Part shown: in pieces, positions 7,998-33,260 of the stretch
Layout of the letters: each line of letters begins with the position of its first letter
Position numbering within the stretch: the stretch's first letter is position 1
Source of the DNA: SAR116 cluster bacterium AG-390-L20
GTDB taxonomy: Bacteria > Pseudomonadota > Alphaproteobacteria > Puniceispirillales > Marisalimonadaceae
DNA: 64,000 nt
NCBI GenBank assembly: GCA_003278095.1
Contig: QCHB01000005.1
Span: 43,977 to 107,976 of the forward strand
Direction of reading: 5' to 3'
Made by a program: the position numbers and the translations under genes
The notes under the pieces: generated by a model
Seen by the model: the letters and a program-made list of their open reading frames with translations, nothing else
What the model was told of the DNA's origin: nothing
The model's database searches: none

Positions 7998-8025
7998 ACT
8001 TTTATATTAAGTGGAATGATCACGC

Positions 8026-8037
8026 CTCGTAAAGTGA
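8026..8037. repeat. orphan CCTCGTAAAGTG box (5' box of type-A repeats) at the distal edge of the cassette array
   Basis: cctcgtaaagtg matches the start of A1 (tctcgtaaagtg), A3 (cctcgtaaagta) and A4 (cttcgtgaagtg), but the rest of the repeat is absent. Confidence 0.5.
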
Positions 8038-8073
8038 ATTGAGAAAGACCTTATTTTTATTATTTATTAATTT

Positions 8074-8412
8074 TTAAAAACCAGAGTATTTAACATTTTC
8101 AAAAAGATTAAAATCACTCTGAGTTGACATTCTTCCTTGAGTTTCACCTCCAACTATTGTCATTGTGGCTCCCATTTCTGTGATCTGTTTTTTTAAATCT
8201 GAATATTCACCTGCTTGTTTAAAAGATTTATCCCATTCTTTTTTTGACTTCCAAACAGTTAAAAATTGAAAAGAGATATCTGAAATATCAATAAATAATG
8301 AAAAATTTAAACCATCTTTAAATAAAGAATCTGTATAATTTATACAAAAAAATTTAAAAGAGTCCCTTGAAACCTTGTTTACAAATTTAAAAACATGGGT
8401 TCTCGTATACAT
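8074..8412 (-). CDS. hypothetical small protein, family 2 (paralog of 8752..9075)
   Basis: FLTVWKSKKEWDKSF..ITEMGATMTIVGGET aligns with MFHLWKDKSSLIKTR..IKEMGGIVSKSEGET of the neighbour; possible ABM-like alpha+beta barrel. Confidence 0.5.
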   Translation of the reverse strand: MYTRTHVFKFVNKVSRDSFKFFCINYTDSLFKDGLNFSLFIDISDISFQFLTVWKSKKEWDKSFKQAGEYSDLKKQITEMGATMTIVGGETQGRMSTQSDFNLFENVKYSGF

Positions 8413-8470
8413 ATTTTTTCCTTTTTTCTCATTTTTAATTTTTTAAATATAATTTAATGAAATTAGATTA

Positions 8471-8752
8471 TCAATCTAAACAGTACTTAATTGGTCCCTC
8501 AAATGACCTTATTTTTAAGTTAGTTTTCAATTCATTAATTTCTAGATTATTCATGATTTTTATTCTATCTGTAGATTTCTTATCTTTAAATCTAGCAACA
8601 ACAAACGCTGACATATCATTTACTCTGAAAACTTTTGCAGACTTTTGACCCTATTCAAAATTTTTTGGAAAATGAGTAATTCTTAAATAATCTAAAAAAA
8701 TATTTAATTGAAGTTTAGTTGGAGCTGTTATTTCTACAATTCTAACGTACAT
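8471..8752 (-). pseudogene. small ORF interrupted by an in-frame TAG (8651-8653)
   Basis: My translation: MYVRIVEITAPTKLQLNIFLDYLRITHFPKNFE*GQKSAKVFRVNDMSAFVVARFKDKKSTDRIKIMNNLEINELKTNLKIRSFEGPIKYCLD*. Its ATG overlaps the TGA of the upstream ORF (TGATG at 8750-8754). Confidence 0.45.
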
Positions 8753-9075
8753 CACTTAACCTGTACATTAGCATTATTTATTAGTTTTGACATTTCAACT
8801 ACCGTTTCACCCTCTGATTTACTTACTATTCCTCCCATTTCTTTTATATCATTCCAAAACTTATTGGAAAACTTTGTTCTTGTTTTTATTAAAGATGATT
8901 TATCTTTCCATAAATGAAACATATCTATTTGAGTATCTGATACTTCCGTGAAGCACCTAATTAACAAGCCTCCACTTTCATTAAACAACTCTTCACTCAT
9001 ATTTTTGAGGGACATAACTATAGAATCTTTGGCTAATTTATTTTGTAATTTTACAGTAACTGTTATTCCATACAT
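8752..9075 (-). CDS. hypothetical small protein, family 2
   Basis: 107 aa, paralogous to 8074..8412 (see that entry). Confidence 0.5.
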   Translation of the reverse strand: MYGITVTVKLQNKLAKDSIVMSLKNMSEELFNESGGLLIRCFTEVSDTQIDMFHLWKDKSSLIKTRTKFSNKFWNDIKEMGGIVSKSEGETVVEMSKLINNANVQVK

Positions 9076-9112
9076 ATTTTAAATTCCATAAGCATTTTGA
9101 TACTGACATATT

Positions 9113-9244
9113 TTAATCAAATCGAACATATCTCGTAAAGTGTTAAACATTTTAATGTCTAATATAAAGTCTTTCAGAAAGGCTAATGCAATCGAAGTAA
9201 TAGTTTTAGTTGTTGTCGCTAAGTAAGGCTGTATGAGCCAGGAG
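9113..9244. repeat. type-A structured repeat, copy A1 (most diverged)
   Basis: tctcgtaaagtgttaaacattttaatgtctaatataaagtct...ggctaatgcaatcgaag...aggctgtatgagccagga aligns with A2-A5; abuts the stop of ORF 9245..9583. Confidence 0.7.
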
Positions 9245-9583
9245 TTAGACTCTCAAATCCTGAAGAACAATGTTTCTACTTGCCTCTATAACAGGGTCTG
9301 CGGCTTGAAGTTCTTTCATAATGTTTTTGGTAAAATTTTCTAATTCATTTTGAGATTGTTTAAATGAAGTTGGACTTTCATACTCAAACAAAATAGATAT
9401 TTTAAATGTTCCCTTCATATTCCATATTTGATTAAGACAAAATCTTGTACATCCTTTTTTTTTAAGTTTGTCAAACAATGCTGTACCATTATCTTCCCAA
9501 ATTCTTCTAAAAAGAAGCATTTGCGCTTCTGTCTTGAAAGTAAAAGTATTGTAAGTCATTAAATTTGCTTTTGTATCCAACAT
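9245..9583 (-). CDS. hypothetical small protein, family 1 (WN-x-G...FEY motif), diverged member
   Basis: KKKGCTRFCLNQIWNMKGTFKISILFEYESPTSFKQSQ aligns with the other three members. Confidence 0.55.
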   Translation of the reverse strand: MLDTKANLMTYNTFTFKTEAQMLLFRRIWEDNGTALFDKLKKKGCTRFCLNQIWNMKGTFKISILFEYESPTSFKQSQNELENFTKNIMKELQAADPVIEASRNIVLQDLRV

Positions 9584-9702
9584 AAACTCCTAGTCTGCAA
9601 AAATTTATAATAAATTAAGGTATCAATCAAACCTATCTATGTTAAGTAAAAAGGAACCAAAACTTTAACACTTTGTTTCATCGTTTTGATTAAAGATAAT
9701 AA

Positions 9703-10045
9703 AATTTTATAATTACATTAAGTTAAATTTTAGATTAATGCGATTGAGAAGCAGTTCCATACTCTACTTATGCATCGTGTCCTATCACAATCAAGCTATA
9801 TATTGAGATATGGATACATATGGCATTGTCAATAGGCACCATATGTTTCACACTTTGTTTTACATCTTAATTTAGCGTTCTTAGTATAGAAAAATGGGTC
9901 ACTAAATATGTATAAATATACCTAATTATAATAACACTTCTATGTATCACTTAAGTGTAACACTATAAGTGTAATCCTGCCCCACACGTGTGCCACCCGA
10001 CCCTTGTCGGTATAGTATACATAGGCTTTGCAGCAGATGAAGGTA
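9703..10045. repeat. type-B non-coding module, copy B1 (contains decayed tRNA-Leu 3'-end fragment)
   Basis: 9710-9735 matches 14851-14876 at 25/26. 9862-10040 is roughly 85% identical by eye to 15012-15194. Ends in tatagtatacataggctttgcagcagatgaagg. Confidence 0.75.
9736..9751 (-). repeat. degenerate copy of the tRNA-Leu 3' end
   Basis: taatgcgattgagaag versus tggtgcggctgagaag (12/16), in the same position relative to the conserved flank ttaaattttagat as the exact copy at 14877. Confidence 0.5.
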
Positions 10046-10112
10046 TTTACAATAATTAGACAGTGAAATATTCTACTATTAATCACTTTAACTTTTTAAA
10101 TAGGACACTTTT

Positions 10113-10457
10113 ATGACTTCTTCAAAACTAGTAAATTATACCACAAGAGAATTTATGTCAGACCATGAACTTGAACATTACATAGTTAAACAAAACGAAA
10201 TATTTACACCAAAAGTTGTTGAAGAATTTACGAAAGCTGGAATGTTAAGAAGAGTTTTGACAAAACTTTGGAATAAAGAAGGTGTCCATAGAGTTGGTAT
10301 ATTATTTGAGTATAGAGACGAAAAAGCATATGTTGCATGTCAAAGTCTATTAGAAAAGCATTATATCCCAATGGTAAAAACATTTATTACTAAAGTAATA
10401 GGAAGCCGGGGTATAGTAGTCCATGAATTTAGTTCTGAAGAATTTACGAAGGGATAA
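10113..10457 (+). CDS. hypothetical small protein, family 1 (only plus-strand member)
   Basis: KAGMLRRVLTKLWNKEGVHRVGILFEYRDEKAYVACQ; lies between B1 and A2. Confidence 0.6.
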   Translation: MTSSKLVNYTTREFMSDHELEHYIVKQNEIFTPKVVEEFTKAGMLRRVLTKLWNKEGVHRVGILFEYRDEKAYVACQSLLEKHYIPMVKTFITKVIGSRGIVVHEFSSEEFTKG

Positions 10458-10463
10458 AATAAC

Positions 10464-10580
10464 TAAAGTGTTTACCATTTTAATGACTAATACAGAGTTA
10501 TACAGCAAGGTTAATGTAATCAGATTCAATTAATATCAGCTATAGTTTTAGTGGTTGTGTCAGTCTGAATGAGTCAGGAA
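10464..10580. repeat. type-A structured repeat, copy A2
   Basis: taaagtgtttaccattttaatgactaatacagagtta..cagcaaggttaatgtaatcagattca..cagtctgaatgagtcagga. Arms 10484-10500 and 10561-10576 pair at 12/16. Confidence 0.75.
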
Positions 10581-10594
10581 TTTATAGTCTGATT

Positions 10595-10969
10595 TTATTT
10601 ATTATTTTCATACCACTTATCTAAGTTTATTATTTCATCTTTTGGTTTTAAACTTGACGTAAACCTCTCTACTTCAACAACAAAAAAACTAGCATACTTA
10701 TCTGTTCCCCAACTTTGAACTTGCTTTTCTACATCTTCCTTTGAGTTAGCTAAATAATGAGAACAAAAAAAGGTACTATTGTTTCCAAGCCACGTTTGAG
10801 AGCATGTTGCAAACTCTCCAACTGCATCTTCAGCCCATTTGCCGTGAGTAACACCTTTTGGATACAATTTGTTAAAAGAGGATTTATATTCATCTGACTT
10901 TTTCTCTGACAGAAAGTCATAAATAACAATATAGTTATTCTTTCTATTTTCAGTATTTGTTTTCACCAT
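10595..10969 (-). CDS. hypothetical protein
   Basis: 124-aa ORF between A2 and B2; no motif recognised. Confidence 0.5.
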   Translation of the reverse strand: MVKTNTENRKNNYIVIYDFLSEKKSDEYKSSFNKLYPKGVTHGKWAEDAVGEFATCSQTWLGNNSTFFCSHYLANSKEDVEKQVQSWGTDKYASFFVVEVERFTSSLKPKDEIINLDKWYENNK

Positions 10970-10992
10970 CTACCTATCAATACTTTTGCAAT

Positions 10993-11280
10993 AGCATCAG
11001 TTTATGTGTTCCTAAATCTGTGTCAACAGGCACATAATGGTCTGCCGTTTGGTGTACCCTTAGAAATCTTCTGGTAATGTAAAGAACCTTCAAATTTATA
11101 CACATATAAATATACTCAACTACATACTATCTTCTTCATTAGTCAGTTAATATATTACAATTAATATGTAGTCATTTAGGTGTGCAGTTATATGTATTAT
11201 TTAAGTGACCCTACCCACAGATGGGACATAGGACGGTGTACGTATAGTATACATAGGCTCTGCAACAGATGGAGTGTTAA
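10993..11280. repeat. type-B non-coding module, copy B2 (left end truncated, no tRNA fragment)
   Basis: gcatcagtttatgtgttcctaaatctgtgtcaacaggcacataatggtctgccgtttggtgtaccc and tatagtatacataggctctgcaacagatggagtgttaa match B4; the middle is diverged. Confidence 0.7.
11036..11058. repeat. tandem direct repeat, 12-bp period (aatggtctgcc g tttggtgtacc)
   Basis: Same position within the B module as 14983-15005. Confidence 0.6.
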
Positions 11281-11636
11281 TAATTATAATCTAATAAATT
11301 AAGTGTTCTTGTAGTTAATCTTTTCACAGTGATTTTCTTAAAGAAATTTTCATTCTCTTTAAAATGTTTTTCTATAACTTTTTGTCCCTTAACATAGGCA
11401 TTTTCGTCTTTATATTCAAATAACGTTGACAAAGCAAAACCACCTTCTTTGTTCCATACCTGATTCAATCTAAAGCGCATCAATCCAATTTTTTTCATGC
11501 TTTCATAAAAGTTTGAACCTGTTCTTTCTACATAATTTATAAATAATTCCATTTCGGCTTCACTAGAAAAATCTATTAAAACATGACTAATTAGTTTTGC
11601 TGATGGTATTGAATTTTTATGTTCGTTCATACACAT
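11277..11636 (-). CDS. hypothetical small protein, family 1
   Basis: KKIGLMRFRLNQVWNKEGGFALSTLFEYKDENAYVKGQ; its TAA stop (11277-11279) lies inside the AGTGTTAA box that ends B2. Confidence 0.6.
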   Translation of the reverse strand: MCMNEHKNSIPSAKLISHVLIDFSSEAEMELFINYVERTGSNFYESMKKIGLMRFRLNQVWNKEGGFALSTLFEYKDENAYVKGQKVIEKHFKENENFFKKITVKRLTTRTLNLLDYNY

Positions 11637-11697
11637 AACCTATTTACTAATTTAAAATATTAAAAAATAAAATTATAACTTTGTAGTTACTATATTA

Positions 11698-12000
11698 TTA
11701 TATTCCTTCAACCATAAGTATGTTTGAAGTAGAATTTTCTAATCTTACTTTTTTATAAGGTCTGTATTCTTCACTATCATACCATTTCATAGCTGATTTT
11801 TTGTCAGGAAATTTTACTAATACCATTCTAGTAGGTTTCCATAAATTTGTTTCCAAAGAATCTATCTCTCCACCCCGAATTAAGTATTCACCACCATAGC
11901 TTTCAATCATAGGTTTAACTTTTTCCATATATTTCTGGTATTCTTCTATGTTGTGTATATCCACGTCACCAATCATATAAACTGACATAATCGTCTCCAT
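11698..12000 (-). CDS. DUF1330-like protein
   Basis: SVYMIGDVDIHN..EEYQKYMEKV.P.IESYGGEYLIRGG...MVLVKFPDKKSAMKWYDSEEY matches the DUF1330 pattern as I recall it; the true start may be the ATG at 11985. Confidence 0.65.
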   Translation of the reverse strand: METIMSVYMIGDVDIHNIEEYQKYMEKVKPMIESYGGEYLIRGGEIDSLETNLWKPTRMVLVKFPDKKSAMKWYDSEEYRPYKKVRLENSTSNILMVEGI

Positions 12001-12116
12001 GCTTTCTTTTTCATATTTATATCGCTAATCAAATACCTACAAACAAAATATATAAACTACCAAACAATAAAAAATCAATTATGACAATTTTCATAAAGCT
12101 ATTCATGCTAATAGTT

Positions 12117-12259
12117 TAATCCAAAGAAACACTCCTCGTAAAGTATTAACCAATTTAATGACTAATACAGAGTCATGCAGCAGGGTTAATGTAATCAGAG
12201 TCAAAATGGGTGCATGAGATGTTGTTATAGTGATTGAATGAGTCTGTATGAATCAGGGA
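12117..12259. repeat. type-A structured repeat, copy A3
   Basis: taatccaaagaaacactcctcgtaaagtattaaccaatttaatgactaatacagagtcatgcagcagggttaatgtaatcagagtca...tgagtctgtatgaatcaggga. Arms 12159-12175 and 12239-12255 pair at 14/17. Confidence 0.8.
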
Positions 12260-12357
12260 TGGGTGTGGTAACACTTATATCAAAATTCGTAGAAAGCTAT
12301 TAAATGGAAATCCAACTCTGAGTATTTTATAGGATAGATTACAATTTAAATTTGTAA

Positions 12358-12783
12358 TTATTTGGCGAATACAGTAAGTGGTCCAAGACCTTCAGCTCCA
12401 GCAATTACAGCATACACTATTGTGGGCGTTTTAGCTGTGTTTGTAACAGTGTGAGGTGAATTTGTTGCTTCAACAAACGTATCTCCGGCCTTATAGACTA
12501 CCTTTTTTCCATTAGGACGTTCTGAGGTAACCTCCCCTGACATTATATGCACGATAAGGGGTGCAGGATGAGTATGCTTTGGTAATTTTCCACCCACTGG
12601 AAATATTACCTGAACAATAGTCATTTTTGGAGTACCTTTAGGGTAAGAAATAGCTTCACCTGCACTAGATTTAGAACTTGAATGTAACACTGTTACTTGT
12701 GGTTTTAATTGTTTTGAATTGGCCACATTTGCAAATACTGCTATAGTTAATATAATTATCAATTTTGTAATTAATTTATTCAT
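12358..12783 (-). CDS. secreted cupin-domain protein
   Basis: N-terminal signal-like MNKLITKLIIILTIAVFANVANS; cupin motifs HTHPAPLIVHIMSGEV and GDTFVEATNSPHTVTN. Confidence 0.75.
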   Translation of the reverse strand: MNKLITKLIIILTIAVFANVANSKQLKPQVTVLHSSSKSSAGEAISYPKGTPKMTIVQVIFPVGGKLPKHTHPAPLIVHIMSGEVTSERPNGKKVVYKAGDTFVEATNSPHTVTNTAKTPTIVYAVIAGAEGLGPLTVFAK

Positions 12784-12892
12784 TAGATTTCCCTTTTAAC
12801 TTATTTAAACCAAAAATTTATACTCATTTATAATGATTTGTCTGTAAAGTATTTACATATTTAAAAATATAAGACTGTACAAATAATAAGCA

Positions 12893-12945
12893 TATATGAG
12901 GGTGTAGCTATATATGTATAGTTAGCGTCTGTAGCAGATGGGATT
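12893..12945. repeat. type-B module fragment, copy B3 (3' end only)
   Basis: tatatatgtatagttagcgtctgtagcagatggg aligns with tatatacataggctctgcagcagatgggg of B4. Confidence 0.5.
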
Positions 12946-13006
12946 TTAGAATTGGTATAGTACGTAGATGAATATTATTGTTAGCCCAAGCATAAGTATA
13001 AACTTC

Positions 13007-13360
13007 TTATATACTCCAATCATATTTAAACTCAGAAACCACTATTCCCCTATTATTAAATATTTTGAAAACAAATTTTGCTAAGGTTGGACAATTTTCA
13101 GGTGTGAAAGCAACATTTAAAATATTTTCACATTTTTTAAAAGATGTCTCACTGTCATATTCAAAAACTTGAGTAATTCTATGATGTCCTTTATTCCATA
13201 CTTTAGAAATTACATGACGAATTAAACCATTTTGCTTCAATTGAGAGTAAAGTTTATCTGTCCATATTTCATCAAGAGATTTCAAAAATAAATCTAATTC
13301 ATTTTCAGTTGAAAAATCCATATACAGTGAGTTAAGAAAAGCCGTATCTTTATTTTTCAT
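13007..13360 (-). CDS. hypothetical small protein, family 1
   Basis: KQNGLIRHVISKVWNKGHHRITQVFEYDSETSFKKCE. Confidence 0.6.
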   Translation of the reverse strand: MKNKDTAFLNSLYMDFSTENELDLFLKSLDEIWTDKLYSQLKQNGLIRHVISKVWNKGHHRITQVFEYDSETSFKKCENILNVAFTPENCPTLAKFVFKIFNNRGIVVSEFKYDWSI

Positions 13361-13441
13361 TTATTTCTAAAAACCTTAAAGTTTCATTTTTAAAAAATTA
13401 GTTTTATTTTTTACATATTAATTTTTTATATCTATATATCC

Positions 13442-13581
13442 TAATCCAAACAAACACCCTTCGTGAAGTGTTAACTATTTTAATGACTCTTACAGAGTCA
13501 TATAGCAGGGTTAATGTAATCAGAGTCATTGATATATGAAATATAGTTGAAGTGGCTTTATGAAACTGAGTGAGTCAGGGA
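13442..13581. repeat. type-A structured repeat, copy A4
   Basis: taatccaaacaaacacccttcgtgaagtgttaactattttaatgactcttacagagtcatatagcagggttaatgtaatcagagtca...actgagtgagtcaggga. Contains a perfect 7-bp palindrome, tgactct tac agagtca, at 13484-13500. Confidence 0.8.
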
Positions 13582-13596
13582 TTAATAAAACTATCT

Positions 13597-14742
13597 CTAA
13601 TTAATCTCTTCTACTATTTTAGAAACAACACCTTTTTTGAATAAGTTTCCATATTTATATTTTTCATCAACTGAAAACATAGTTAAGATTGTGTTTTTAG
13701 TAGTATTAATAACATTAAAAAATCCACCATGACCTGTCATAGTTAATGTTGGTACGCCATTTACTTCGTATACCCAAAACTGATATCCGTATCGTACTCC
13801 ATCTCTTTTTGTCTCAACTGCATTTTCAATACCTTCTTTATAAAATTTACCTAAACACGTATTATTAATCATTTCGTCATGTATAAATTGACCAAAGTTT
13901 GACCAATCTAATACACTCATTGTCAACCTAGCTTGGGCAACTGTAATTCCTTTTTTATCTGAAACCCAATGCATGAATTTATTTTGGCTAAATTTTTTAA
14001 AAGCATTTTCATAGAAAATTTGACTTGCTGGTCTGTTTGTTAAATCAGTAATCATAATTGAAAGTGCGAATGGGTCTGATGAAAAATAAAAATGTTTTGA
14101 GCCTTGTTCTCTGTCATTATCCTTTAAAATTGAAATAGCCTTAAACATACTAGCTTTTCCTTCATATTTTCTCAGCCCCATTGCCATTTGGTTCATCTTT
14201 CTTCTTAGCTTATAATCATTTTGTATTGGCGCCACTCCACTATTCATCTGCAGTGTGTTTCTTATAGTTATTTTAGAGTATGGAGTTTGCTTGAGTGAAG
14301 AAGAATATTTACCTAATTCATCATCTAATGATTCAATTTTACCGATGCAAACAAGACTACCAATTGCCGTAGCCAATGCTGTTTTTGCCATAGACATACC
14401 GTGTAATATCGTATTACTATCAATATTTCTTTTTTTATTAAATCTTGCATAAACTAAATCATTATTTTTTCTTATTAACGCAGCTAAATTGTTTTTATCT
14501 TTAAAAATATTGTCATAATTTTCTTTTTTCAAATTGACACTATCAAGATTTTGTTTTTCCCCATAACTATGAATATTTATTTTAAAAGGACCAAACTTTT
14601 TTGTTTCATGAACATTAAAATAGGGCTTTATTTGCCTTTTCCACATTTTTTTAGGCCCATGGTCAGCGTAAGAAATAAAGAAAAATGAAAAATAAATTGT
14701 TATAGATAAAAATAACTTGAACATAAATAGCCTCAAATACAA
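13597..14742 (-). CDS. serine hydrolase, beta-lactamase/transpeptidase-like family, membrane-anchored or secreted
   Basis: 381 aa; hydrophobic N-terminus; S-x-x-K motif SMAK in GMSMAKTALATAIG. Confidence 0.7.
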   Translation of the reverse strand: MYLRLFMFKLFLSITIYFSFFFISYADHGPKKMWKRQIKPYFNVHETKKFGPFKINIHSYGEKQNLDSVNLKKENYDNIFKDKNNLAALIRKNNDLVYARFNKKRNIDSNTILHGMSMAKTALATAIGSLVCIGKIESLDDELGKYSSSLKQTPYSKITIRNTLQMNSGVAPIQNDYKLRRKMNQMAMGLRKYEGKASMFKAISILKDNDREQGSKHFYFSSDPFALSIMITDLTNRPASQIFYENAFKKFSQNKFMHWVSDKKGITVAQARLTMSVLDWSNFGQFIHDEMINNTCLGKFYKEGIENAVETKRDGVRYGYQFWVYEVNGVPTLTMTGHGGFFNVINTTKNTILTMFSVDEKYKYGNLFKKGVVSKIVEEIN

Positions 14743-14876
14743 TTAATTAATATGTTAATAATAAACATATTAATTAATTTTAAAACAAAAAAATAAGCAC
14801 CAAATTTTTCAATCTATTTCACAGTGTTAATTTAAAAAAATAAAATTTAATAATTACAGTAAGTTAAATTTTAGAT

Positions 14877-14893
14877 TGGTGCGGCTGAGAAGA
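14877..14893 (-). repeat. exact 17-bp duplicate of the tRNA-Leu(GAG) 3' end (candidate att core)
   Basis: tggtgcggctgagaaga is identical to 16101-16117 (3' strand of the T stem, acceptor 3' strand and ACCA). Confidence 0.85.
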
Positions 14894-14982
14894 TTTAAGT
14901 TAATCTAAGATGCACCACTTGAGGTTGTATACAAGCTCTATGCTCAGTTTATGTATTACCGAATCCGTGTCAACAGGCACAT

Positions 14983-15005
14983 TTTGGTCTACCGTTTGGT
15001 CTACC
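14983..15005. repeat. tandem direct repeat TTTGGTCTACC g TTTGGTCTACC
   Basis: Perfect 11-mer twice with a 12-bp period, about 90 bp from the 14877 core copy. Confidence 0.8.
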
Positions 15006-15201
15006 CTAAATGTTACATCTTAATTTAGCGTTCTTAGTATAGAGAACATAGAAATGGATATGTGTAAATATACCTAAACTATAATAACATTTATATGTAT
15101 CATTTAAGTGTAACACTATAAGTGTAATCCTACCCCACAAGTGAGCCACCCCACCCTTGTACGGATATATACATAGGCTCTGCAGCAGATGGGGTATAAA
15201 T

Positions 15202-15316
15202 AGTGTTAACCATTTTAATGTGTCATAGAGGTTCAAGCAGTAGGGTCTATTTAATCAGAGCCAATGGTACATTGGATGTGTTTATAGTAGTTGTTTGAGT
15301 CTATGTGAATTAAAGA
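15202..15316. repeat. type-A structured repeat, copy A5 (fused to B4)
   Basis: agtgttaaccattttaatgtgtcatagaggttcaagcagtagggtctatttaatcagagcca...tgagtctatgtgaatta. The stem cataga/tctatg shows two compensatory changes relative to tacaga/tctgta of A3. Confidence 0.7.
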
Positions 15317-15507
15317 TGGAGAGTTAAAGTTTACTACCACTAACTTTTATTAATTAATTTAATTTGTTTTTCATTCATATTTTTTAACTGATTTGGTAAA
15401 GTTATTTCATCAGTCCATAAAAGCTTAATATTCAAGCCAACATTAACATATTATAATGATACGTAATCTAGGCTTCTTATAAATATTCAACCTATAAATA
15501 TTAAACC

Positions 15508-15864
15508 TTAAGCATTAACCTTCTTTTTAGATTTCCAAATTAAAAAAACTAGAGATAAAACTTGAGCTGCAAGTAAAAACCACACAAGTCCTGCTATTGA
15601 ATTTTCATCTGCATTTTCAGCACTTGCTGCAACCCATAAAAGAGGAGAAAGGAAAAACAAGCTTAAAAAATTGACTCCAATTGCTATATACCCTAAAAGC
15701 GCACTTTTTCCATAAGATAATGCAGCAAGAATTGCAGAAACTACAGTAAGGTAAACACCGATAACTGGAATAAAAATGGATATCCCGGCTAGAACAATAG
15801 ATAATATACCCATTACTTTACCACGAGAACCTTCTTGTGAAACAACTTCATTAGATTCATTCAT
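15508..15864 (-). CDS. hypothetical small membrane protein
   Basis: 118 aa, 3-4 predicted hydrophobic helices, lysine-rich C-terminus; only ORF inside the mini-element. Confidence 0.55.
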   Translation of the reverse strand: MNESNEVVSQEGSRGKVMGILSIVLAGISIFIPVIGVYLTVVSAILAALSYGKSALLGYIAIGVNFLSLFFLSPLLWVAASAENADENSIAGLVWFLLAAQVLSLVFLIWKSKKKVNA

Positions 15865-16012
15865 AATTTTTTCCTTTAGTTCAATTATAAAATTAAATAA
15901 TTAATTTACATAAAAATAAGTCTATTTAAATGTACTTAAAAAATTTAAATAGTCAATTTTTAAAATTAAAAGTAATTTTATAATCAAATATGGAATGTGA
16001 AGGGAACATTTA

Positions 16013-16035
16013 AATGGTCTACTATTTGGTCTACC
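16013..16035. repeat. tandem direct repeat aatggtctact a tttggtctacc
   Basis: Same motif, orientation and 12-bp period as 14983-15005; lies 65 bp from the tRNA 3' end. Confidence 0.75.
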
Positions 16036-16100
16036 CTCCAAGGACACATTACAAAATATGCTTACACATCAACTACTTAGGATGACTGAATCACTTGAAA

Positions 16101-16187
16101 TGGTGCGGCTGAGAAGACTCGAACTTCCACGGGTTTTACCCCACAGCGACCTCAACGCTGCGCGTCTACCAGTTCCGCCACAGCCGC
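16101..16187 (-). tRNA. tRNA-Leu (anticodon GAG), CCA encoded
   Basis: Reverse complement is GCGGCTGTGGCGGAACTGGTAGACGCGCAGCGTTGAGGTCGCTGTGGGGTAAAACCCGTGGAAGTTCGAGTCTTCTCAGCCGCACCA. Features: 7-bp acceptor stem, anticodon loop TTGAGGT, long variable arm. Confidence 0.9.
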
Positions 16188-16277
16188 ATATAAAAAGTCA
16201 TGTTTGCGATAACAAAACAATTTGTATAATGCAAGTTAAATAATATATTAGCAAATGATAGGATTAGGGTTATTAAA

Positions 16278-32631: not shown

Positions 32632-33260
32632 GACAACCGTTCCTCAACAAATTTAAGTGCATCGTCAATAATTATTAAGTTTTCTTTTTTAACAATATCG
32701 TAGACATTAATTCCTTCGTAGGAAAGCACATCTAAATTTTTAATATTATTTGCAGCTTTAACAAAATTTGATTCAACATCATTACCTGAAATAACTAGAG
32801 TTTTGCCCACTCCCATCTTATCTAATTTTTTCTTTAAAGTAGAGGTCTTTCCATCACATTTTGAGCCATCTAAAATAATAAGTTTTCCAAGTTTGAATTT
32901 ATCAGATAATGCAGATTTTAAACCAAGTTTCCTTACTTTTTTATTTAAGTTATGAGAATGCGAATGAACAACTGGCCCATGAGCCATCCCGCCACCTCTA
33001 AACTGTGACACTGAACCCGAACCGTGCCTAGCTTTACCAGTTCCTTTTTGCTTATACATTTTAGCTGTAGTCATTTTAATTTCACTTCGCGTTTTAACAG
33101 AGTGGTTACCCAAACGTCTTTTAGCTAATTGCCATCTTATAACTCTGGCCATTATGTCAGGTCTAGGAGATATTCCAAAAACATTAACATCTAGCGTTAT
33201 TTCTTTACCTGACTTGTTATTTAAATTTAAAGATTTAATTTTCACCTTAGGCTCCTTCAT
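32628..33260 (-). CDS. rplD: 50S ribosomal protein L4
   Basis: [24 protein letters not shown]; start placed at the internal ATG (MKEPKVKIK); exact start uncertain. Confidence 0.88.

What the first reader, a model, noticed from the sequence alone, without database searches (positions are those of the whole stretch)
14983..16035. Tandem 12-bp-period TTTGGTCTACC direct repeats near both ends of the mini-element (candidate recombinase arm-type sites)
Seen: tttggtctacc-g-tttggtctacc at 14983-15005 lies about 90 bp inside the left 17-bp core. aatggtctact-a-tttggtctacc at 16013-16035 lies 65 bp inside the right core, in the same orientation. A third copy, aatggtctgcc-g-tttggtgtacc at 11036-11058, sits at the same position in module B2. 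The units are one helical turn apart, and the motif is GC-richer than its surroundings. Established: lambda-type attP arms carry directly repeated arm-type integrase or excisionase binding sites at similar distances from the core. Inference: these are protein-binding sites kept by non-autonomous elements.
Basis: partly seen in the sequence, partly recalled or inferred. Interest (0 to 1): 0.65.

Follow-up and report, generated by a model that had tools for sequence, protein, structure and literature searches.

The report
Integrase arm sites on mini-island
The paired TGGTCTACC repeats are real and are most likely docking sites for a tRNA-targeting integrase, kept at both ends of a small gene-carrying island that has lost its own integrase gene; this is a familiar kind of site in an undescribed, widespread marine element family.

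Summary
Exact 12-bp-spaced TGGTCTAC pairs lie at 14985-15004 and 16015-16034, inside exact 17-bp copies of the tRNA-Leu(GAG) 3' end. A decayed pair lies at 11038-11057.

Comparison with public genomes supports the arm-site reading and refines it.
- **tRNA-side pair.** In six other Alphaproteobacteria, beside five different tRNA species, the same pair lies 66-68 nt past the tRNA 3' end. There it overlaps the ribosome site and ATG of a tyrosine integrase with a DUF6538 N-terminal domain. In the window only about 35 nt of that gene remain and the ATG is ATA.
- **Far-side pair.** It always follows a constant box, GTCAACAGGCAC. This box holds the -35 of a conserved sigma-70-like promoter that points at the core.
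- **Covariation.** Across 80 metagenomic integrase loci the repeat unit differs by integrase subfamily, and it changes in step at both arms (permutation p about 3e-4).
- **Integrase fold.** The modelled integrase aligns end to end with full-length lambda Int.

The window holds no cognate integrase, so the 1.24-kb element would need one supplied from elsewhere. Binding itself is untested.

Seen in passing: most integrase genes of this family are flanked by near-perfect 80-105-bp inverted repeats of tRNA end plus arm.

The parts
16101..16187 (-). tRNA-Leu(GAG), the integration target. Its last 17 nt (16101-16117) form the right-hand core repeat.
   Evidence: ARAGORN, Rfam tRNA 50.9 bits, exact 17-mer search.
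16036..16100 (.). tRNA-side arm (X arm) spacer: 65 nt between the repeat pair and the tRNA end.
   Evidence: The same 66-68 nt spacing is seen in six other loci at five tRNA species. This stretch is about 90% like the X arms of the closest integrase subfamily, loci L198-L207.
16013..16035 (+). X-arm repeat pair, with units at 16015-16022 and 16027-16034. On the - strand it reads GGGTAGACCAAATAGTAGACCA. 16023-16025 is the former integrase start codon, ATG in relatives and ATA here.
   Evidence: Alignment with L015, L058, L080, L085, L086 and L095. In 80 metagenome loci the integrase ATG lies in or beside the pair.
15981..16012 (-). Remnant of the integrase 5' coding region, ending at a deletion point.
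   Evidence: The - strand reads ...GTAGACCATTTAAATGTTCCC..., against ATGGTAGACCATTTAAATGTTTCC (MVDHLNVS) in relatives. Metagenome unitigs from seven of the eight runs laid switch to other sequence exactly at 15981.
15508..15864 (-). Only cargo gene of the mini-element: a 118-aa predicted membrane protein.
   Evidence: ORF list. Only a weak DUF5684 hit. Depth about 0-6 in metagenomes, against tens to about 2000 for the arms.
14983..15005 (+). Far-side arm (Y arm) repeat pair, with units at 14985-14992 and 14997-15004.
   Evidence: Same layout in 32 distinct Y arms.
14946..14980 (-). Constant Y-arm box GTGTCAACAGGCAC (14967-14980). It contains a sigma-70-like promoter on the - strand: -35 TTGACA at 14973-14968, a 16-nt spacer, and -10 TAAACT at 14951-14946. 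It points towards the core.
   Evidence: Promoter scan, 10 of 12 matches. TTGAC(A/G)-N16-TAAnnT is kept in 23 of 29 low-GC Y arms whatever the repeat unit. Coordinates.
14894..14945 (.). Core-proximal part of the Y arm: a stretch specific to the target tRNA, a TGCACC box (14911-14916) and an inverted repeat CTTG..CAAG (14919-14936).
   Evidence: Y-arm alignments. The roughly 35 nt next to the core differ between tRNA-Leu and tRNA-Arg targets, while the rest of the arm stays about 90% identical.
14877..14893 (.). Left-hand core: an exact 17-bp copy of the tRNA-Leu 3' end.
10999..11058 (+). Module B2 Y arm, older and internal. Promoter: -10 at 10999-11004, -35 at 11021-11026. Box at 11022-11033. 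Decayed pair at 11036-11058, with one mismatch per unit. No core remains. The promoter runs straight into ORF 10595-10969 (-).
   Evidence: (families D6, D9).
9805..9864 (+). Module B1 Y arm. It has the same promoter box (9828-9839) but the repeat pair of a different integrase subfamily, TGTTTCACACTT-TGTTTTACA (9844-9864). A decayed core lies at about 9735-9751.
   Evidence: The unit matches the X and Y arms of L259-type integrases.

Best explanation
The TGGTCTACC pairs are most likely arm-type binding sites for the N-terminal (DUF6538) domain of a lambda-like tyrosine integrase. This integrase family inserts elements into the 3' ends of tRNA genes in marine Alphaproteobacteria.

In the joined, circular-type site the order is: X arm (pair, then about 66 nt), core (the tRNA 3' end), then Y arm (about 90 nt, a promoter box, then the pair). 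All four units point the same way. I infer that an integrase bound to the arms also binds the core and so assembles the recombination complex.

Two further roles are inferred. The X pair overlaps the integrase's own ribosome site and ATG, so occupancy would repress the integrase. This is the arrangement shown experimentally for KplE1 IntS. The Y pair lies just upstream of the -35 of a conserved promoter that reads across the core. That promoter would read into the integrase in a circle or tandem junction, and in this window it reads into the next cargo gene.

The window's 1.24-kb element (14877-16117) keeps both arms intact and both cores exact, but has lost the integrase apart from about 35 nt. 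It is therefore a non-autonomous element that a same-subfamily integrase encoded elsewhere could move. The older modules to its left are earlier insertions pushed away from the tRNA.

Shown here: the anatomy, its conservation, the tRNA and integrase linkage, and the covariation. Inferred: binding by the integrase, autoregulation, promoter activity and present-day mobility.
For: 1. **Fixed position next to tRNAs.** In the window and six loci (L015, L058, L080, L085, L086, L095) the exact pair lies 66-68 nt past the tRNA 3' end, pointing at it. The tRNAs are Leu-GAG, Gly-CCC, Thr-TGT, Arg-TCG and Gly-GCC. The hosts range from 29 to 64% GC.
2. **Link to an integrase.** In L015 and L086 the second unit contains the ATG of a DUF6538 tyrosine integrase (Phage_integrase catalytic domain hit in intact L015, SAM-like domain in the truncated L086 ORF).
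3. **A complete relative.** L015 plus L096 form a roughly 6.1-kb element with an intact integrase. It has the pair at both ends in the same orientation, 67 and 62 nt from the tRNA and from a 51-nt partial tRNA copy.
4. **Unbiased test.** 80 loci were fetched by integrase similarity only. Most subfamilies show a roughly 12-bp-period repeat at or near the ATG, though it is weak in some. The unit differs by subfamily (GGTAGACCA, GGTAGACAA, GTACAACA, GGTATACC, TGACGTACA, TGTGAAAGA and others). Its register relative to the ATG also differs, so it is not a coding or ribosome-site constraint.
5. **Covariation between arms.** The Y arm keeps a constant box but carries the same subfamily-specific unit as the X arm. 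Own-versus-other match gives a permutation p of about 3e-4.
6. **No other conserved gene.** The integrase is the only gene between the conserved flanks in many loci.
7. **Integrase fold.** The AlphaFold model built on 61 sequences has pLDDT 83.5, with a small N-terminal beta-sheet plus helix domain. Foldseek aligns it over 370-389 columns with full-length lambda Int (E about 5e-9). The top hit is Tn1549 Int.
8. **Arms are shared, cargo is rare.** In eight seawater metagenomes the arm bins reach word depths from tens to about 2000, against about 0-6 for the cargo gene. Other cargo joins the same X stub at 15981.
9. **A joined junction exists.** One unitig joins 16100 to 14877 through the 17-nt core, giving the X|core|Y junction.
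10. **Published precedent.** Arm sites overlapping the integrase promoter, with negative autoregulation, are described for KplE1 IntS and P4 (PMC2951348) and for ICEMlSymR7A IntS (PMC11963761).
Against: - No binding or recombination experiment exists for this family.
- X-arm covariation with the integrase is partly explained by physical linkage. The independent signal is the X-Y concordance, and it is imperfect: L198, L202 and L273 sit next to a Y arm of another subfamily, which I read as mixed tandem arrays.
- The X|core|Y unitig was seen in one of eight runs, and it could be a tandem junction in a relative and not a circle.
- The promoter is a consensus match plus conservation. No transcript data were obtained.
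- The N-domain similarity to lambda Int comes from a whole-protein alignment with high rmsd. It is not a domain-level superposition.
Confidence: 0.75

Rival explanations
1. The pairs are bound by some protein other than the integrase. Candidates are an excisionase or directionality factor, an element-encoded repressor, or a host regulator.
For: Short direct repeats next to a promoter and over a start codon are also typical operators. Directionality factors bind direct repeats in att arms, as RdfS does (PMC11963761) and TorI does (PMC2951348).
Against: The unit changes with integrase subfamily at both arms. A conserved host factor would be expected to keep one site sequence, so it would not explain these changes. 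Many loci hold only the integrase between conserved flanks, and no small helix-turn-helix gene is consistently present. The constant box GTCAACAGGCAC is a better candidate for a shared factor or for RNA polymerase.
Confidence: 0.12
2. The pairs are purely transcriptional or translational control elements of the integrase gene and of the outward promoter. They play no part in assembling the recombination complex.
For: The X pair overlaps the ribosome site and ATG. The Y pair lies roughly 45-70 nt upstream of the promoter's start, where activators and UP elements act.
Against: The pairs sit at fixed distances from the crossover core in both arms. The window's mini-element keeps them perfect although no integrase gene is left to regulate. 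Older internal copies that have lost their core have decayed (B2).
Confidence: 0.07
3. The pairs have no present function. They are a relic of the integrase 5' end and of an old duplication, or they are replication-origin repeats (iterons).
For: The right copy is indeed a gene remnant. 12-bp direct repeats resemble iterons.
Against: All four units are perfectly kept in genomes from 29 to 64% GC, including synonymous positions. The same units recur in a non-coding arm. No replication gene is present, and each arm has only two units.
Confidence: 0.04

Closest known systems
Lambda-type integrases that bind both arm and core sites, with arm-type sites in attP (lambda Int P1, P2, P'1-3)
   Same: A tyrosine recombinase with a small N-terminal domain, a core-binding domain and a catalytic domain. 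Short direct repeats unrelated to the core lie in both arms, tens of bp from the crossover site.
   Different: The N-domain belongs to Pfam DUF6538 and shows no sequence match to lambda Int. There are two units per arm, all in one orientation. One pair overlaps the integrase start codon. No IHF, Xis or Fis sites were identified.
KplE1 (CPS-53) IntS at argW, and P4 Int: integrase promoters that overlap attL arm sites and are negatively autoregulated (PMC2951348)
   Same: A co-oriented tRNA followed by the integrase gene, with the integrase's own sites between them.
   Different: Here the tRNA-to-integrase gap is only 64-126 nt, and the units cover the ribosome site and ATG, not the -10. Regulation is untested. 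Many copies have an added inverted repeat after the integrase.
ICEMlSymR7A IntS and its attP with five arm motifs TGKTGGTATC at tRNA-Phe (PMC11963761)
   Same: An alphaproteobacterial, tRNA-targeting element with the integrase gene next to attL. Its repeated arm motifs are required for integration, and the integrase represses its own gene.
   Different: That element is a 502-kb conjugative element (size from my own knowledge) with a separate directionality factor. Here the elements are 1-6 kb with no transfer genes visible.
Tycheposons of Prochlorococcus (bioRxiv 10.1101/2020.12.28.424599)
   Same: Small cargo elements at tRNA-proximal island ends in streamlined marine bacteria. Tandem copies are separated by partial tRNAs, and degenerate remnants build up the island.
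   Different: Different host phylum. No relationship between the integrases was tested. Arm repeats, an outward promoter and an inverted-repeat-flanked integrase were not found in term searches of that paper. There each tRNA has its own integrase clade, whereas here one arm type is found at several tRNAs.
Cis-mobilizable elements: att-flanked islands without an integrase. The definition is from my own knowledge; the term occurs in PMC5704250.
   Same: The window's 1.24-kb element has both att sites and arms but no recombinase.
   Different: The described examples derive from streptococcal conjugative elements. Mobilization is not shown here.
Integrons (IntI, attI, attC cassettes)
   Same: An array of single-gene units separated by conserved non-coding repeats, built at one site by a tyrosine recombinase.
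   Different: The recombination sites here are tRNA-derived cores with arm sites, not folded attC hairpins. The integrase has an arm-binding domain. Each unit carries its own promoter. NCBIfam gives only a weak sub-threshold integron-integrase hit, and only for L015 (19.8 bits against a cutoff of 265).

Membership tests
Arm-type sites of a lambda-like tyrosine integrase that binds both arm and core | The cognate recombinase has a separate N-terminal DNA-binding domain in addition to its core-binding and catalytic domains. | tested here: met
   Tested on relatives only. Pfam finds DUF6538 plus a SAM-like or catalytic domain. The AlphaFold model (pLDDT 83.5) has an N-terminal beta-beta-beta-alpha-beta-helix domain. 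Foldseek aligns 370-389 columns with full-length lambda Int chains. No integrase is present in the window.
Arm-type sites of a lambda-like tyrosine integrase that binds both arm and core | Repeated short motifs, unrelated to the core, lie in both arms at set distances from the crossover region. | tested here: met
   The X pair lies 65-68 nt from the core and the Y pair 89-104 nt from it, in the window and in relatives.
Arm-type sites of a lambda-like tyrosine integrase that binds both arm and core | The core is a segment identical to the chromosomal target and is duplicated at both element ends. | tested here: met
   Exact 17-bp tRNA-Leu 3' end at 14877-14893 and 16101-16117.
Arm-type sites of a lambda-like tyrosine integrase that binds both arm and core | Motif sequence tracks integrase specificity. 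| tested here: met
   Subfamily-specific units are shared by X and Y arms. Permutation p is about 3e-4, with three mixed-array exceptions.
Arm-type sites of a lambda-like tyrosine integrase that binds both arm and core | The integrase N-domain binds the motif directly, and the motif is required for recombination. | not testable with these tools
   Needs gel-shift or footprint assays and an in vivo recombination assay.
Autoregulated tRNA-then-integrase arrangement (KplE1 IntS paradigm) | A co-oriented tRNA lies directly upstream of the integrase gene, with integrase sites over the gene's expression signals. | tested here: met
   35 of 53 loci have a co-oriented tRNA ending 64-126 nt upstream of the ATG. 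The units overlap the ribosome site and ATG.
Autoregulated tRNA-then-integrase arrangement (KplE1 IntS paradigm) | The integrase represses its own expression. | not testable with these tools
   Needs reporter fusions with and without the integrase.
Tycheposon | The integrase belongs to the tycheposon tyrosine-recombinase clades. | not tested
   No tycheposon integrase sequence was on hand. The papers were used only to compare how the elements work.
Integron | An IntI-type integrase and attC hairpin sites. | tested here: not met
   NCBIfam integron-integrase hit of 19.8 bits against a cutoff of 265. The sites are tRNA-derived cores with arm repeats.
Known structured RNA (Rfam) | A match to a curated covariance model over the arm or the non-coding modules. 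| tested here: not met
   Only the tRNA matches, both at gathering threshold and at E up to 1 over 8000-16200.

The most novel reading that the evidence does not exclude
These islands may be built by an integron-like platform anchored at a tRNA. In about two-thirds of the usable integrase loci (47 of 73), the gene lies between near-perfect 80-105-bp inverted repeats made of tRNA-end core, X arm and first unit. Sites in inverted orientation can only invert, not excise, so the integrase would stay resident. It might flip between two inward-facing promoters: tRNA read-through on one side and the Y-arm promoter on the other. Meanwhile small promoter-bearing cassettes with X|core|Y sites, such as the window's 1.24-kb element, would be captured and released at either core. 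The repeat unit would then act as a compatibility code that sorts cassettes among integrase subfamilies sharing the same tRNA.
Probability: 0.25. Interest if true: 0.8.

Novelty: new member of a known kind. Interest (0 to 1): 0.55.

Why it matters
Low-GC SAR116 and related marine Alphaproteobacteria carry hypervariable islands next to tRNAs, and the mechanism that builds them is undescribed. These repeats give a sequence-level handle on that mechanism.
- They mark both ends of each inserted unit.
- They identify the integrase family responsible. Its DUF6538 domain has no assigned function, and no paper in the searched library mentions it.
- The subfamily-specific unit predicts which integrase could move which cassette.

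This makes a tycheposon-like island-building process testable in heterotrophic marine bacteria. It also supplies compact att sites, with a readable arm code, for recombination assays.

Tried and rejected
- **Own-genome search.** Whether the genome has a cognate integrase elsewhere is unknown.
- **Public genome scan.** By my own estimate, about 280 chance hits are expected in 596 Gb. Most of the 120 loci were indeed chance or coding matches, for example a conserved Lachnospiraceae gene. Only the subset that shares flanking context was used.
- **Viral contigs.** These gave essentially one relevant locus, L189. The elements do not look like phages.
- **Rfam.** Nothing but the tRNA, at either threshold. 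I therefore dropped the idea that the pair is part of a known RNA.
- **Single-sequence AlphaFold.** The model of the L015 integrase was unusable at pLDDT 34. It was replaced by the alignment-based model.
- **Second set of metagenome runs.** Four more runs did not repeat the X|core|Y joint. I treat that joint as weak evidence.
- **Literature.** Searches for DUF6538, for the motif itself, and for SAR116 islands with integrases found no description of this system.
- **Coding explanation.** I considered that the repeat merely encodes M-V-D-H. I rejected this because its register relative to the ATG differs between subfamilies and the same unit recurs in the non-coding arm.
- **Origin of the inverted repeats.** I tried to derive the inverted-repeat-flanked integrase from ordinary integration, tandem insertion or a single inversion. 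No scheme avoided special breakpoints, so it is left unexplained.

Full report
**1. What is in the window**

The window is about 30% GC. tRNA-Leu(GAG) lies at 16101-16187 on the - strand, next to lipB. The last 17 nt of the tRNA recur exactly once more, at 14877-14893. These two copies bracket a 1.24-kb segment with one small membrane-protein gene and no recombinase.

To the left, up to the TauE gene at about 8000, lies an array of one- or two-gene units. The cargo includes four DUF6974 proteins, a DUF1330 protein, a cupin and a beta-lactamase-fold protein. The units are separated by two kinds of conserved non-coding repeat.

The repeat pairs named in the finding are exactly where stated. Four of the six exact TGGTCTAC 8-mers in 64 kb are these two pairs.

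**2. The tRNA-side copy is the start of a lost integrase gene**

I scanned one genome per prokaryotic species for TGGTCTAC-N4-TGGTCTAC. Most hits were chance or coding matches, but one subset shared flanking context with the window. In six loci plus the window, the pair lies 66-68 nt beyond a tRNA 3' end and points at it. The tRNAs are Leu-GAG (three times), Gly-CCC, Thr-TGT, Arg-TCG and Gly-GCC. The hosts are SAR116 single-cell genomes, a Marivivens genome and other Alphaproteobacteria.

When aligned, every locus but the window reads: tRNA end, about 66 nt, then GG(G/T)GTAGACCA-N-ATGGTAGACCA. Where a gene follows (L015, L086; a short remnant in L085), the ATG starts a tyrosine integrase with a DUF6538 N-terminal domain. 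The window has ATA in place of ATG (16023-16025). Only about 35 nt of integrase coding sequence remain before the similarity ends at 15981.

**3. The far-side copy belongs to a conserved arm with a promoter**

Thirty-two distinct far-side arms were aligned. Reading towards the core, all have the same order:
- two repeat units, 12 bp apart;
- 3-4 nt;
- GTGCCTG-TTGAC(A/G), then 16 nt, then TAAnnT;
- a small inverted repeat with compensatory variants (CTTGTA..TACAAG against CTCAAG..CTTGAG);
- a GGTGCA-like box;
- about 35 nt that differ according to the target tRNA;
- the tRNA 3'-end copy.

The TTGACA-N16-TAAACT element is a good sigma-70-type promoter on the strand that points at the core. In the window these promoters face the next cargo gene to the left. 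That gene is ORF 13597-14742 for module B4, ORF 10595-10969 for B2 (its ATG is 30 nt after the -10), and ORF 9245-9583 for B1. In a circle or a tandem junction the same promoter would read across the core into the X arm and the integrase.

**4. A complete relative**

L015 and L096 are neighbouring pieces of one contig. Together they hold a roughly 6.1-kb element with an intact 374-aa integrase. The pair is present at both ends in the same orientation: 67 nt from tRNA-Leu(GAG), and 62 nt from a 51-nt partial tRNA copy. This is the same topology as the window's mini-element.

**5. Test that does not depend on the motif**

I fetched 80 metagenome loci by integrase similarity alone (47-66% identity). 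The scan confirmed 461 relatives and was capped. Most subfamilies show a roughly 12-bp-period direct repeat at or near the integrase start, but it is weak or unclear in some. The unit differs between subfamilies: GGTAGACCA, GGTAGACAA, GTACAACA, GGTATACC, TGACGTACA, TGTGAAAGA and others. Its register relative to the ATG also differs. The repeat is therefore a DNA-level feature. It is not a coding or ribosome-site constraint.

Where a Y arm follows, it keeps the constant promoter box but carries the subfamily's own unit. Over 10 distinct unit types, own-arm matches beat cross matches, with 2.5 against 4.6 mismatches and a permutation p of about 3e-4.

Exceptions exist: L198, L202 and L273 each sit next to an arm of another type. 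The window's own module B1 also carries the TGTGAAACA-type unit. So arrays mix elements of at least two integrase subfamilies at one tRNA.

35 of 53 loci with enough upstream sequence have a co-oriented tRNA ending 64-126 nt before the ATG. Ten tRNA species are represented.

**6. The integrase**

With a 61-sequence alignment the AlphaFold model reaches pLDDT 83.5. It has an N-terminal beta-sheet plus long helix, followed by core-binding and catalytic domains. Foldseek finds Tn1549 Int (E 1.5e-10) and full-length lambda Int chains aligned over 370-389 columns (E about 5e-9). A profile search of PDB sequences also finds Tn1549 Int. NCBIfam has no specific model for it. The integrase is the only gene between the conserved flanks in many loci. 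That makes it the obvious binder of units that covary with it.

**7. Population evidence**

In eight seawater metagenomes the Y-arm bins (tens to about 2000) and the X-stub bins (57-845) have far higher word depth than the cargo gene (about 0-6). Unitigs from seven of the runs join other sequence to the X stub at exactly 15981. The arms are therefore a shared backbone with variable cargo. One unitig joins 16100 to 14877 through the 17-nt core, which is the X|core|Y junction of a circle or a tandem copy. It was seen in only one run, so it is weak evidence.

**8. Interpretation**

The pairs are best read as arm-type integrase sites. They play a second role as an operator over the integrase start, as shown for KplE1 IntS and P4 (PMC2951348) and for ICEMlSymR7A IntS (PMC11963761). 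The Y pair may also modulate the outward promoter.

The window's element is non-autonomous. No DUF6538 integrase is present in the 64 kb, and the rest of the genome could not be searched. Its perfect units and exact cores contrast with the decayed B2 copy, which has lost its core. This fits the tRNA-proximal unit being the youngest insertion, as in the tycheposon island model.

**9. Unexplained extra**

In 47 of 73 usable integrase loci, the 80-105 bp just upstream of the ATG (core, X arm and first unit) recur as a 90-100% identical inverted copy downstream of the integrase. It starts within a few nt of the stop codon where I checked (L086, L189) and lies further out in some loci. The Y arm follows on the outside. 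Some integrases lie between two convergent tRNAs. This happens in a single-cell genome, in an isolate provirus and in many metagenome contigs with long flanks, so it is not an assembly artefact. Sites in inverted orientation allow inversion but not excision. I could not derive the arrangement from ordinary integration.

**10. Verdict**

The pairs are a new member of a known kind: arm sites of a lambda-like integrase, belonging to an undescribed and widespread marine element family.

Noticed in passing
L086:810-2150; L189:257-1597; also L199, L203, L204, L208, L212, L213, L231, L262-L268, L276 and others: In 47 of 73 usable loci the integrase gene lies between near-perfect 80-105-bp inverted repeats of tRNA 3'-end core, X arm and first repeat unit. 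The right-hand copy starts 1-3 nt after the stop codon in L086 and L189, the two loci checked, and lies further out in some others. It is followed on the outside by the Y arm. The layout resembles an insertion sequence. Inverted sites would allow inversion of the integrase but not its excision.
   Followed up: partly
window 14946-14973, 10999-11026 and 9805-9832 (- strand): Each Y arm carries a conserved sigma-70-like promoter, TTGACA-N16-TAAACT, pointing at the core. It is kept in 23 of 29 low-GC Y arms. In the window it faces the next cargo gene to the left.
   Followed up: partly
window 9844-9864; L092:3946, 6009 and 7405; L198, L202, L273: Arms of two different integrase subfamilies (GGTAGACCA type and TGTGAAA(G/C)A type) occur in the same island and at the same tRNAs. 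One metagenome unitig shows the other unit grafted onto the same downstream module, as a loose end at 15013 in run X13.
   Followed up: partly
window 9113-9244, 10442-10580, 12117-12259, 13442-13581 and 15202-15316; also L086:2330-2520: The second repeat family (type A, about 115-145 nt, with GAGTC/GACTC inverted boxes) lies downstream of cargo genes. It is also present in L086 in diverged form. It has no Rfam match. It may be a terminator-like or structured 3' module.
   Followed up: no
window 9245-9583, 10113-10457, 11277-11636 and 13007-13360; L085:2030-2359; L092:2855-3184: DUF6974 proteins recur as cargo: four paralogues in the window, plus ORFs in L085 and L092 with a similar N-terminus that I did not scan against Pfam.
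   Followed up: partly
L200, L221, L230, L237, L259: Some integrase genes have a tRNA gene on the opposite strand downstream; in L200, L221 and L237 a co-oriented tRNA also lies upstream, so two convergent tRNAs of different species flank the integrase. An X-arm-like sequence faces both in at least L200 and L237. This hints at integrase-linked rearrangements between tRNA loci.
   Followed up: no
L006, L049, L068, L093 (Collinsella): A triple TGGTCTAC repeat (tttggtctacatt-TGGTCTACGTTT-TGGTCTACgg) is conserved in four Collinsella genomes. It may be arm sites of an unrelated element that uses a similar unit.
   Followed up: no
L013:280-320; L189:130-215: Other repeat pairs were seen. GGTCCACAGGA-GGTCCACAGG lies at the start of a 467-aa integrase without a DUF6538 hit. 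CGTGGTCC-type pairs lie upstream of the L189 integrase. This suggests the same design in more distant integrases.
   Followed up: no
window about 32895-33200 (- strand): Weak tblastn similarity to tyrosine-recombinase catalytic motifs. This is probably the chromosomal XerC or XerD and not an element integrase.
   Followed up: no
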